In this document: positions 46,432 to 46,535 of the stretch, piece by piece
How the letters are laid out: each line of letters begins with the position of its first letter
Numbering within the stretch: the first letter of the stretch is position 1
Source: Escherichia coli
GTDB taxonomy: Bacteria > Pseudomonadota > Gammaproteobacteria > Enterobacterales > Enterobacteriaceae
Assembly (NCBI RefSeq): GCF_044324785.1
Contig: NZ_CP172127.1
Strand: one strand, 5' to 3'
Length of the DNA: 64,000 bases
Notes under the pieces: model-generated
Databases searched by the model: none
What the model saw: only the letters and a program-made list of their open reading frames with translations
Told to the model about the DNA's origin: nothing
Position numbers and translations under genes: made by a program

Positions 46432-46535
46432 CCGGTGCGCCTTATCTTGCCGGATGCGGCGTGAACGCCTTATCCGACCTACAGGAATGTGCTGAATCAC
46501 CCCGTAGGCCTGATAAGCGTAGCGCATCAGGCAAT
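46432..46535. repeat. REP/BIME element (two REP-like palindromic units in inverted orientation)
   Basis: gccggatgcggcgtgaacgccttatccgacctac ... gtaggcctgataagcgtagcgcatcaggc: classic E. coli REP sequence family. Confidence 0.75.

What the first reader, a model, noticed from the sequence alone, without database searches (positions are those of the whole stretch)
46432..46535. REP/BIME element between lldP and the adhesin gene
Classic REP palindromes in inverted orientation mark the junction between the conserved lld operon and the variable adhesin locus; REP clusters often coincide with insertion or rearrangement boundaries.
Basis: partly seen in the sequence, partly recalled or inferred. Interest (0 to 1): 0.15.

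Follow-up and report, generated by a model that had tools for sequence, protein, structure and literature searches.

The report
REP pair after adhesin gene
This is a genuine but ordinary pair of E. coli's common repeated palindromes (a BIME-1-type element) just behind an adhesin gene; comparison with 5,426 genomes shows it is dispensable and variable, and that the K-12-type loss of the adhesin has one break point inside it.

Summary
Confirmed and ordinary. Window 46449-46482 (+) is a y-type REP (33/34 to consensus). Window 46504-46532 (-) is a short z-type REP (29/29), which is Z1, not Z2. Their GTAG/CTAC ends face each other across 21 nt. With its conserved flanks the element spans 46423-46542.

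It aligns with canonical BIME-1 copies but lacks 14 nt of the L linker, the IHF half. It lies 32 nt after the stop codon of a 1904-aa trimeric autotransporter adhesin (EhaG/UpaG/SadA position). It sits just upstream of that gene's intrinsic terminator (46420-46391), which abuts the lldP control region. It is therefore 3'UTR of the adhesin mRNA, and the two REPs are predicted to pair.

Among 5,426 complete E. coli genomes:
- about 1,617 carry the full pair;
- 1,980 carry a collapsed single palindrome;
- 536 have an empty site;
- 1,261 have the K-12-type deletion of sadB plus the adhesin, whose right end falls exactly at the CTAC of the z REP.

The adhesin locus itself is ancestral, not inserted.

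Side lead: complete BIME-1 copies at several loci are flanked by direct duplications of a terminator-type hairpin. Matching empty sites exist for the E. coli cases.

The parts
46565..52279 (-). Trimeric autotransporter adhesin gene (1904 aa; EhaG/UpaG/SadA positional ortholog). Stop codon TAA at 46567-46565. The element lies in its 3'UTR.
   Evidence: ORF. Pfam ESPR, YadA_head, YadA_stalk and YadA_anchor. Annotated 'trimeric autotransporter adhesin EhaG' or 'YadA-like' at the same position in other strains.
46543..46553 (.). Decayed copy (mRNA sense CGAATGGGTAA) of the terminator's 5' arm. In RM9513-type alleles this position holds a perfect 10-nt direct repeat, CTAAGGGCAA.
   Evidence: Alignment A1; sequences; repeat test (10/10 in RM9513; nothing significant left in the window allele).
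46533..46542 (.). z-side flanking motif (mRNA sense ACGCCACATT). It is the inner part of the flank GAGACTGATGACAAACGCNAAAYT shared by the BIME-1 copies compared here.
   Evidence: Alignment A2. The same flank is found at yqeB-yqeA, mog-satP, dppA-dppB and in Pseudocitrobacter.
46504..46532 (-). Short z-type REP (Z1): GCCTGATGCGCTACGCTTATCAGGCCTAC.
   Evidence: 29/29 to the consensus, 0 expected by chance. Identical to the z unit of canonical BIME-1 copies. Lacks 7 central nt of the Z2 unit in the naRNA4 model. Z2 is defined by REP325 (PMC4550694).
46483..46503 (.). 21-nt linker between the CTAC and GTAG ends. It is a remnant of the 35-nt L linker; the 14 nt that include the TGCAATNTAT half of the conserved core are missing.
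   Evidence: Alignment A2. The linker is 21 nt in all Escherichia copies at this locus and 35-36 nt in canonical copies.
46449..46482 (+). y-type REP: GCCGGATGCGGCGTGAACGCCTTATCCGACCTAC (one G-to-A change at 46477).
   Evidence: 33/34 to the consensus, 0 expected by chance. naRNA4 Y-unit alignment scores 36 bits.
46423..46448 (.). y-side flanking motif (mRNA sense AAGATAAGGCGCACCGGGTCAACAAT). It is homologous to ATAAACAAAGCGCACTTTGTCAACAATCT of the other BIME-1 copies.
   Evidence: Alignment A2. The yqe version of this flank, with the adjoining end of the y REP, occurs at a median of 12 places per E. coli genome.
46391..46420 (-). Intrinsic terminator hairpin of the adhesin gene (13 pairs), followed on the - strand by TTCTTCATTA (46390-46381). 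Its 5' arm (46413-46422 on the + strand) is the direct-repeat partner.
   Evidence: Terminator scan; inverted repeat I4; fold. The stem columns are invariant across E. coli, E. albertii and Escherichia sp. E1V33.
46349..46372 (.). Context: palindrome AATTGGTAGGGCCAAT upstream of lldP. It is probably the distal LldR operator; that assignment is from memory and was not tested. It marks the start of the lld control region.
   Evidence: Sequence. Conserved in all alleles. Part of the sub-threshold STnc380 Rfam alignment.
44498..46153 (-). Context: lldP (L-lactate permease), first gene of lldPRD.
   Evidence: Pfam Lactate_perm, E = 1e-235; RefSeq annotations.

Best explanation
Window 46423-46542 is one copy of the enterobacterial REP/BIME repeat family. 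More precisely it is a BIME-1-derived unit: flank, then y REP, then a shortened L linker, then z1 REP, then flank. It lies in the 3' untranslated region of the trimeric autotransporter adhesin gene, 32 nt after the stop codon and immediately upstream of that gene's intrinsic terminator.

Shown:
- its identity, anatomy and position;
- a high genomic copy number;
- predicted pairing of the two REPs into one long RNA hairpin;
- strong presence/absence and structural polymorphism among strains whose adhesin gene is intact;
- a K-12-type deletion end at its CTAC.

Inferred:
- It is a non-autonomous, largely selfish or neutral repeat that is transcribed with the adhesin mRNA. At most it adds a second 3' structural barrier, giving some protection from 3'-to-5' decay and some extra attenuation of read-through towards the lldP control region.
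- It has probably lost the IHF-binding function of canonical BIME-1.
- Its single-strand-prone palindromes, which are possible TnpA_REP cleavage substrates, make it a local hot spot for deletion and rearrangement.
For: Identity:
- Consensus matches of 33/34 and 29/29, with 0 expected by chance.
- naRNA4 sub-threshold alignments on both units.
- A dispersed family with a median of 38 or more places per genome.
- Alignment with canonical BIME-1 copies, including both flanking motifs.

Position:
- ORFs and domains.
- Terminator at 46420-46391 on the - strand.

Structure:
- The 196-nt 3'UTR folds at -84.4 kcal/mol, z = -6.5.
- In that fold z1 pairs with y, and the terminator forms a separate hairpin.

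Dispensability and instability:
- 536 genomes have an empty site.
- 1,980 have a collapsed single palindrome.
- About 1,617 have the full pair (minus).
- The adhesin CDS is intact in examples of every class.

Deletion boundary:
- The K-12-type junction TAAG-AACACAGTAT-CTAC occurs in 1,261 genomes.
- TnpA_REP cleaves in vitro at GGCC^TACA, overlapping the CTAC (PMC3333891).

Functional frame:
- REPs act as context-dependent 3'UTR terminators and stabilisers (bioRxiv 10.64898/2026.03.23.713779).
- BIME-1 is defined as y plus z1 plus an L linker that frequently carries an IHF site (PMC3333891).
Against: - There are no expression or RNA-end data for this locus, so every functional statement is inference.
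- A strong intrinsic terminator lies just downstream and already gives a protected 3' end. The added effect of the REP pair may be nil.
- The copy in the window is near-consensus although the same insertion is shared with E. albertii. That could hint at maintenance rather than pure neutrality.
- The coincidence of the K-12 break with the TnpA_REP site could be chance. The other end of the deletion carries 10 nt of filler whose origin I could not find.
Confidence: 0.85

Rival explanations
1. The REP pair is a selected post-transcriptional regulator of the adhesin. Its hairpin stabilises ehaG/upaG mRNA or tunes termination, and the allelic states are adaptive expression variants.
For: - It lies in the 3'UTR with a very stable predicted structure.
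- REP325 stabilises its upstream gene and attenuates the downstream one.
- The window copy is near-consensus even though the insertion is old and shared with E. albertii.
Against: - About 10% of genomes lack the element and 36% keep only a collapsed palindrome, with an intact adhesin in the examples examined.
- A terminator hairpin immediately downstream already protects the 3' end.
- REP effects are reported as highly context dependent and not general for half-life.
Confidence: 0.25
2. It works at the DNA level as a protein-binding site between the two transcription units, either for IHF as in BIME-1 (RIP/RIB elements) or for DNA gyrase as in BIME-2.
For: - It has BIME-1 family flanks and the y plus z1 composition.
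- BIME-1 linkers frequently carry an IHF site, and BIME-2 binds gyrase (PMC3333891; PMC2817692).
Against: - The linker is 21 nt rather than 35. The 14 nt that include half of the conserved core TGCAATNTATTGAATTTGC are missing in every Escherichia copy at this locus.
- The composition is not BIME-2: there is no Z2 unit and no tandem array.
Confidence: 0.1
3. The span encodes a small RNA gene of its own, either naRNA-like or the enterobacterial candidate STnc380.
For: Rfam sub-threshold hits: naRNA4 at 36 and 19.5 bits, and STnc380 at 24 bits over 46327-46428 (+).
Against: - All hits are well below the gathering scores of 59.5 and 60 bits.
- The naRNA4 hits only reflect shared REP units.
- The STnc380 alignment covers the operator-like palindrome and the terminator hairpin, not the REPs. 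On the + strand the hairpin has no T tract.
- The only promoter-like site lies elsewhere, at 46002-45975, inside lldP.
Confidence: 0.04
4. The REPs mark the insertion scar of a horizontally acquired adhesin island next to the lld operon.
For: - The adhesin is absent from K-12-type strains, and the junction is in the BIME.
- Sequence right after the yibL stop differs between haplotypes.
Against: - The sadB-adhesin pair sits at the same place in E. albertii, Escherichia sp. E1V33 and Pseudocitrobacter. It is present in all E. coli classes except the K-12 type.
- The K-12 allele keeps the y REP, the linker and the CTAC of an RM9513-like BIME, with the same unusual substitutions, so it derives from an adhesin-bearing allele by deletion.
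Confidence: 0.03

Closest known systems
BIME-1 (also called RIP or RIB elements) of E. coli
   Same: - One y REP and one short z (Z1) REP in inverted orientation, as a single copy.
- Located at the 3' end of a transcription unit.
- Shares the flanking motifs seen in the canonical copies at yqeB-yqeA, mog-satP and dppA-dppB.
   Different: The linker is 21 nt instead of about 35 nt and lacks half of the conserved IHF-type core. The outer part of the z-side flank is missing or replaced by target sequence.
BIME-2 / REP325 (naRNA4) arrays
   Same: Contains a y REP with GTAG-tagged imperfect palindromes, and gives sub-threshold naRNA4 hits.
   Different: - The z unit lacks the 7 central nt of Z2.
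- There is no tandem repetition.
- No other canonical REP is found in the window.
- Gyrase binding is a BIME-2 property and was not tested here.
REPIN (REP doublet forming a hairpin; Bertels and Rainey 2011, PMC3116915)
   Same: - Two inverted REPs with a spacer are predicted to form one long hairpin.
- Singlet derivatives arise by internal deletion, as those authors mention. Here this is the collapsed allele in 1,980 genomes.
   Different: REPINs were defined in Pseudomonas with identical REPs. Here the two arms are different REP types (y and z1), and extra conserved flanks belong to the unit.
MITEs (miniature inverted-repeat transposable elements)
   Same: - Complete BIME-1 copies show inverted-repeat-like ends (AGAYTGWTGACAAA).
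- At five loci they are flanked by direct repeats.
- Empty sites exist for the four E. coli loci.
   Different: - The direct repeats have variable length (10-29 nt) and consist of a pre-existing hairpin, unlike the fixed short duplications made by DDE transposases.
- A review states that REPs do not display MITE signatures (PMC3184786).
IS200/IS605-type single-strand transposition by TnpA_REP (RAYT)
   Same: Both REPs keep the GTAG tetranucleotide that TnpA_REP needs. The K-12 deletion end coincides, within 1 nt, with the in-vitro cleavage site GGCC^TACA.
   Different: - IS200/IS605 family members do not generate larger target duplications (PMC2817692), whereas hairpin duplications flank BIME-1 copies here.
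- No TnpA_REP activity was or could be tested.

Membership tests
REP (palindromic unit), y type | An imperfect palindrome of about 34 nt matching the y consensus, with the conserved GTAG/CTAC tetranucleotide at its foot. | tested here: met
   33/34 identity at 46449-46482, with CTAC intact. The consensus was recalled from memory. It is independently supported by the Y part of the Rfam naRNA4 alignment and by near-identical y units (0-3 differences) at other BIME-1 loci.
REP (palindromic unit), z1 type | The short z palindrome, as used in BIME-1 and distinct from the longer Z2 of BIME-2. | tested here: met
   29/29 at 46504-46532. Identical to the z unit next to L linkers at yqeB-yqeA, mog-satP and mtlA-mtlD. 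Lacks 7 nt of the Z2 unit in the naRNA4 model. REP325 is made of Y and Z2 (PMC4550694). I first mislabelled it Z2 and then corrected this.
REP family | High-copy, dispersed, extragenic distribution in the genome. | tested here: met
The element lies between the adhesin stop codon and the lldP control region.
BIME-1 (RIP/RIB) | A single y plus z1 pair in inverted orientation, not tandemly repeated. | tested here: met
   One pair only. No further canonical REP was found in the 64-kb window. Definition from PMC3333891.
BIME-1 (RIP/RIB) | [quoted passage not shown] | tested here: not met
   The linker is 21 nt. Alignment A2 shows a 14-nt gap that removes the TGCAATNTAT half of the conserved core. 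My simple IHF regex also failed on canonical copies, so it was uninformative. IHF binding itself was not testable.
BIME-1 (RIP/RIB) | Location at the 3' end of a transcription unit. | tested here: met
   The element starts 32 nt after the adhesin stop codon and lies upstream of its terminator. The feature itself comes from the title of Boccard and Prentki 1993 as cited.
BIME-2 | y plus Z2 units in tandem arrays with short S linkers; binds gyrase. | tested here: not met
   The z unit is the short type and there is no tandem array. Gyrase binding is not testable with these tools.
REPIN | Two inverted REPs with a spacer able to fold into one long hairpin. | tested here: met
   The minimum-free-energy and centroid structures pair z1 with y across the linker.
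REPIN / RAYT system | Mobilisation by a cognate RAYT (TnpA_REP, yafM). | not testable with these tools
   There is only indirect evidence. Both units keep GTAG, and the K-12 break is at the in-vitro cleavage site.

The most novel reading that the evidence does not exclude
Complete BIME-1 elements (REP pair plus their inverted-repeat-like flanks) integrate at pre-existing, mostly terminator-type hairpins by a route that directly duplicates the hairpin. The observed duplications are:
- 28 nt at yqeB-yqeA;
- 29 nt in Pseudocitrobacter sadA-lldP;
- about 19-21 nt at mog-satP and mtlA-mtlD;
- 10 nt at ehaG-lldP.

Matching single-hairpin empty sites exist in other strains for the four E. coli loci. 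No empty allele was available for Pseudocitrobacter.

Variable-length duplications of this kind are not expected from IS200/IS605-like TnpA_REP transposition. They point instead to a copy-choice or staggered-break mechanism at hairpins. They would give natural occupied/empty pairs for attacking the unresolved question of how REPs spread.

I could not establish whether this was already described in the older BIME literature, which is not held in the library.
Probability: 0.35. Interest if true: 0.55.

Novelty: already known. Interest (0 to 1): 0.25.

Why it matters
The element itself matters little. REP/BIME repeats have been known for about 40 years, and this is one more copy.

Three things are useful:
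- It explains at nucleotide level how K-12-type strains (23% of complete genomes) lost the EhaG/UpaG adhesin. One break sits at the CTAC of a REP, the very site TnpA_REP cuts in vitro.
- The locus offers a natural allelic series with the same neighbours: full pair, collapsed palindrome and empty site. That is the isogenic-like material needed to test what a REP pair does to an mRNA 3' end.
- The hairpin duplications around BIME-1 copies, with confirmed empty sites, bear on the still open mechanism of REP dissemination.

Tried and rejected
- I first labelled the z unit Z2 from memory. The naRNA4 (Y plus Z2) alignment and PMC4550694 showed the long unit is Z2, so the window unit is Z1.
- A regex for the IHF consensus WATCAANNNNTTR found nothing, even in canonical L linkers, so it was dropped as a test.
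- A search for the origin of the 10-nt filler AACACAGTAT at the K-12 junction, in ten adhesin-bearing loci and outgroups, found nothing convincing.
- The copy of NC_000913.3 carries no REP or RIP features, so the reference annotation could not be used.
- The classic BIME papers (PMC333889, PMC413762) are not held.
- A fuzzy-regex scan timed out and was replaced by a mismatch scan.
- Three searches failed on the three-character minimum for terms.
- A small RNA gene was rejected as sub-threshold and explained by shared REP or terminator sequence.
- An acquired island was rejected on the outgroups.
- I could not polarise empty versus occupied at ehaG-lldP. E. albertii is occupied and Escherichia sp. 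E1V33 is empty.
- Hairpin duplication is not universal. There was no significant flanking repeat at dppA-dppB or at three other metagenome-derived BIME-1 loci.

Full report
**The observation.** Window 46432-46535 does contain two REP palindromes. The y-type unit GCCGGATGCGGCGTGAACGCCTTATCCGACCTAC lies at 46449-46482 on the + strand, with 33 of 34 matches to the consensus. The short z-type unit GCCTGATGCGCTACGCTTATCAGGCCTAC lies at 46504-46532 on the - strand, with 29 of 29 matches. Neither pattern occurs in any of 100 dinucleotide-preserving shuffles.

The two consensus strings came from my memory. Three results support them independently:
- Rfam's naRNA4 model, built on REP325, aligns to both units below threshold.
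- Identical or near-identical units occur at other loci.
- The 384-bp intergenic query hits 5,425 of 5,426 complete E. coli genomes.

The units are inverted, with CTAC and GTAG facing each other across 21 nt. A mismatch scan found no other canonical REP in the 64-kb window.

**Context.** All the genes here are on the - strand:
- yibL at 53567-53929;
- a DUF3251/SadB-type lipoprotein gene at 52323-53006;
- a 1904-aa trimeric autotransporter adhesin at 46565-52279, with ESPR, YadA head, stalk and anchor domains;
- then lldP (44498-46153), lldR and lldD.

RefSeq calls the same gene 'trimeric autotransporter adhesin EhaG' in O157:H7 and 'YadA-like family protein' elsewhere. The z unit starts 32 nt after the adhesin stop codon.

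Downstream of the pair, still in adhesin sense, is a 13-pair hairpin followed by TTCTTCATTA, at 46420-46391. Its stem is invariant across E. coli, E. albertii and Escherichia sp. E1V33. About 20 nt further on is the palindrome AATTGGTAGGGCCAAT, which begins the lldP control region. Its assignment as an LldR operator is from memory.

The REP pair is therefore 3'UTR of the adhesin transcript, between the stop codon and the terminator. The 196-nt 3'UTR folds at -84.4 kcal/mol (z = -6.5). In that fold z1 pairs with y in one long hairpin and the terminator forms a separate stem.

**Which kind of BIME.** E. coli REPs come in y, z1 and z2 types. BIME-1 is a single y plus z1 pair with a long L linker that frequently carries an IHF site. 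BIME-2 is a y plus z2 tandem array (PMC3333891). REP325/naRNA4 is made of Y and Z2 (PMC4550694), and the window's z unit lacks 7 central nt of that model. It is therefore Z1. I first mislabelled it Z2.

I aligned the element with BIME-1 copies from K-12 yqeB-yqeA, strain PAR mog-satP, dppA-dppB and Pseudocitrobacter sadA-lldP (alignment A2). It shares both flanking motifs. The z-side motif is GAGACTGATGACAAACGCNAAAYT and the y-side motif is ATAAACAAAGCGCACTTTGTCAACAATCT. Its linker lacks 14 nt, including half of the conserved core TGCAATNTATTGAATTTGC.

It is thus a BIME-1 derivative that has probably lost the IHF site. It is not BIME-2. Comparison with empty-site alleles bounds it at 46423-46542.

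Alignment A1 and junction-specific searches give an allelic series among 5,426 genomes.

| Allele | Genomes | Evidence |
|---|---|---|
| Full pair, including about 315 RM9513-type alleles | about 1,617 (2,878 with at least 80% coverage, minus 1,261) | |
| Single perfect palindrome GCCTGATGCGC-TAC-GCGCATCAGGC, from an internal 59-nt deletion (O157:H7, BL21) | 1,980 | |
| Empty site, with the terminator directly after the stop-codon spacer | 536 | |
| K-12-type allele, sadB and adhesin deleted | 1,261 | |

In RM9513-type alleles the element is flanked by a perfect 10-nt direct repeat, CTAAGGGCAA, which is the 5' arm of the terminator. The collapse to a single palindrome is the kind of event mentioned for REPINs in PMC3116915. 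The adhesin CDS is intact in examples of the first three classes, so the element is dispensable.

The K-12 junction reads yibL-TAAG, then AACACAGTAT, then CTAC, then the linker, a degenerate y unit, and the terminator. The retained part carries the same unusual substitutions as RM9513. K-12 therefore derives from an adhesin-bearing allele by deletion.

The break sits at the CTAC of z1. This coincides, within 1 nt, with the in-vitro TnpA_REP cleavage site GGCC^TACA. That link is suggestive only, and I could not trace the 10-nt filler at the other end.

**Age and polarity.** The same insertion, with the same short linker and the same variant flank, is present in E. albertii. Escherichia sp. E1V33 has the empty arrangement. 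Pseudocitrobacter carries an independent, canonical BIME-1 in the opposite orientation at the same terminator. The adhesin locus is therefore ancestral and not an island. Both occupied and empty states at this site are old, and I could not polarise them.

**Mechanism.**
- Shown: identity, position in the 3'UTR, predicted structure, dispensability, instability and the deletion end.
- Inferred: the element is a non-autonomous repeat with, at most, a modest role as an extra 3' barrier and attenuator ahead of the lldP control region.

This inference follows the view of REPs as context-dependent 3'UTR terminators and stabilisers. [quoted passage not shown] The rival readings are a selected regulator, an IHF or gyrase site, an sRNA gene and an island scar. 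They are weighed in the report sections; the last two are essentially excluded.

**Side lead.** While checking the flanks I found that the K-12 yqeB-yqeA BIME-1 is flanked by a perfect 28-nt direct duplication of a hairpin. I predicted the empty site by deleting the element and one repeat. That sequence exists as one piece in 3,517 genomes, and about 1,616 genomes are occupied.

The same pattern holds at other loci:
- mog-satP is occupied in 468 genomes, including the type strain, with repeats of 19 nt and 3 mismatches. It is empty in MG1655.
- mtlA-mtlD is occupied in K-12, with an aligned repeat of about 21 nt. It is empty in this window near 56221-56262.
- In Pseudocitrobacter the repeat is 29 nt with 2 mismatches. 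No empty allele was available there.

A shuffle test supports five of ten loci, with 0 to 4 of 2,000 shuffles reaching the observed score. Five loci, including dppA-dppB, show nothing.

The accessible literature calls the dissemination mechanism unresolved (PMC8266576; PMC3116915). It says REPs lack MITE signatures (PMC3184786). It reports only REP dimers inside target palindromes, and in other phyla (PMC3733652). IS200/IS605-type insertion does not generate larger target duplications.

The older BIME papers were not available. From memory, Bachellier et al. 1997 reported 'excisions of a whole BIME-1'. I therefore cannot claim this is new.

**Verdict.** The finding is real, correctly interpreted and ordinary. 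It is a known kind of element at a known kind of place. The comparative work adds a nucleotide-level account of the K-12-type adhesin loss, a natural allelic series, and a modest lead on BIME-1 insertion.

Noticed in passing
window 56221-56262 (mtlA-mtlD intergenic); K-12 counterpart in L002 between mtlD and mtlA: The window has an empty site with one hairpin, CCCTCTCCTCACGGAGAGGG. K-12 carries a canonical BIME-1 there, flanked by two diverged copies of that hairpin (21-nt aligned repeat; 0 of 2,000 shuffles reach the score).
   Followed up: partly
L016 340-590 (K-12 yqeB-yqeA); L079 205-440 (strain PAR mog-satP); L010 3440-3720 (Pseudocitrobacter sadA-lldP): Complete BIME-1 copies are flanked by direct duplications of a terminator-type hairpin (28, 19 and 29 nt). 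The predicted empty site at yqe was found in 3,517 genomes. mog-satP is empty in MG1655 and occupied in 468 genomes.
   Followed up: yes
window 42463-42534 (lldD-trmL intergenic); L002 2157-2355; L013/L014 4201-4355: The window lacks a GC-rich palindromic element of about 125 bp (boxC-like, CCCTCTCCC...GGGAGAGGG...GGGGTGAGGGG) that K-12 and O157 carry. BL21 and RM9513 instead carry CTGTCTCTTGATCAGATCTCCTGATCAAGAGACAG. From memory, this is an inverted pair of IS50 inside-end sequences.
   Followed up: no
window 46327-46428 (+): There is a sub-threshold Rfam hit to the Salmonella sRNA candidate STnc380 (24 bits; gathering score 60). The alignment covers the operator-like palindrome AATTGGTAGGGCCAAT and the adhesin terminator hairpin. 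The Rfam family therefore seems to be the orthologous sadA-lldP intergenic region rather than a separate gene here.
   Followed up: partly
window 46353-46369: The operator-like palindrome upstream of lldP reads AATTGGTAGGGCCAATC here, in strain N3 and in the metagenome contig L006, against ...CCAATTC in K-12, O157 and the other E. coli alleles examined. The effect on LldR binding is unknown.
   Followed up: no
window 41948-41981 and 16316-16340: Two REP-like hairpins that are not canonical REPs. TGCCGGATGCGATGTAATCATCTATCCGGCATAC lies between the convergent cysE and trmL. GCCGGATGGCATACCATCCGGC is at about 16.3 kb. They resemble y-REP arms and probably act as terminators.
   Followed up: no
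L007 about 3520-3760 (Escherichia sp. E1V33): An insert of about 230 bp with boxC-like inverted ends (CCCTCTCCCCAAAGGGGCGAGGGGG ... CCCTCGCCCCTTTGGGGAGAGGGTTAGGGTGAGGGG) sits between the adhesin terminator and the lldP operator-like palindrome. The REP site in this species is empty.
   Followed up: no
L002 6334-6343 (K-12 yibL-lldP junction): There are 10 nt of filler (mRNA sense AACACAGTAT) between the yibL stop and the retained CTAC. No source was found in any adhesin-bearing allele examined. The identical junction is present in 1,261 genomes, which suggests a single ancestral event.
   Followed up: partly
L005, L006, L011 (genome-contig hits): Contigs assigned to MAGs named Oscillospiraceae, Bacteroidales and Bacillota carry the E. 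coli adhesin-lldP region at 98-99% protein identity. They are most likely mis-binned Escherichia contigs.
   Followed up: no
window 46181-46564 against E. coli genomes: Only 4 records match this intergenic region at 99% or better; the best is strain N3 at 99.7%. Most E. coli match at 90-95%, mainly because of indels between the terminator and the operator-like palindrome. The window therefore comes from an uncommon haplotype at this locus.
   Followed up: partly
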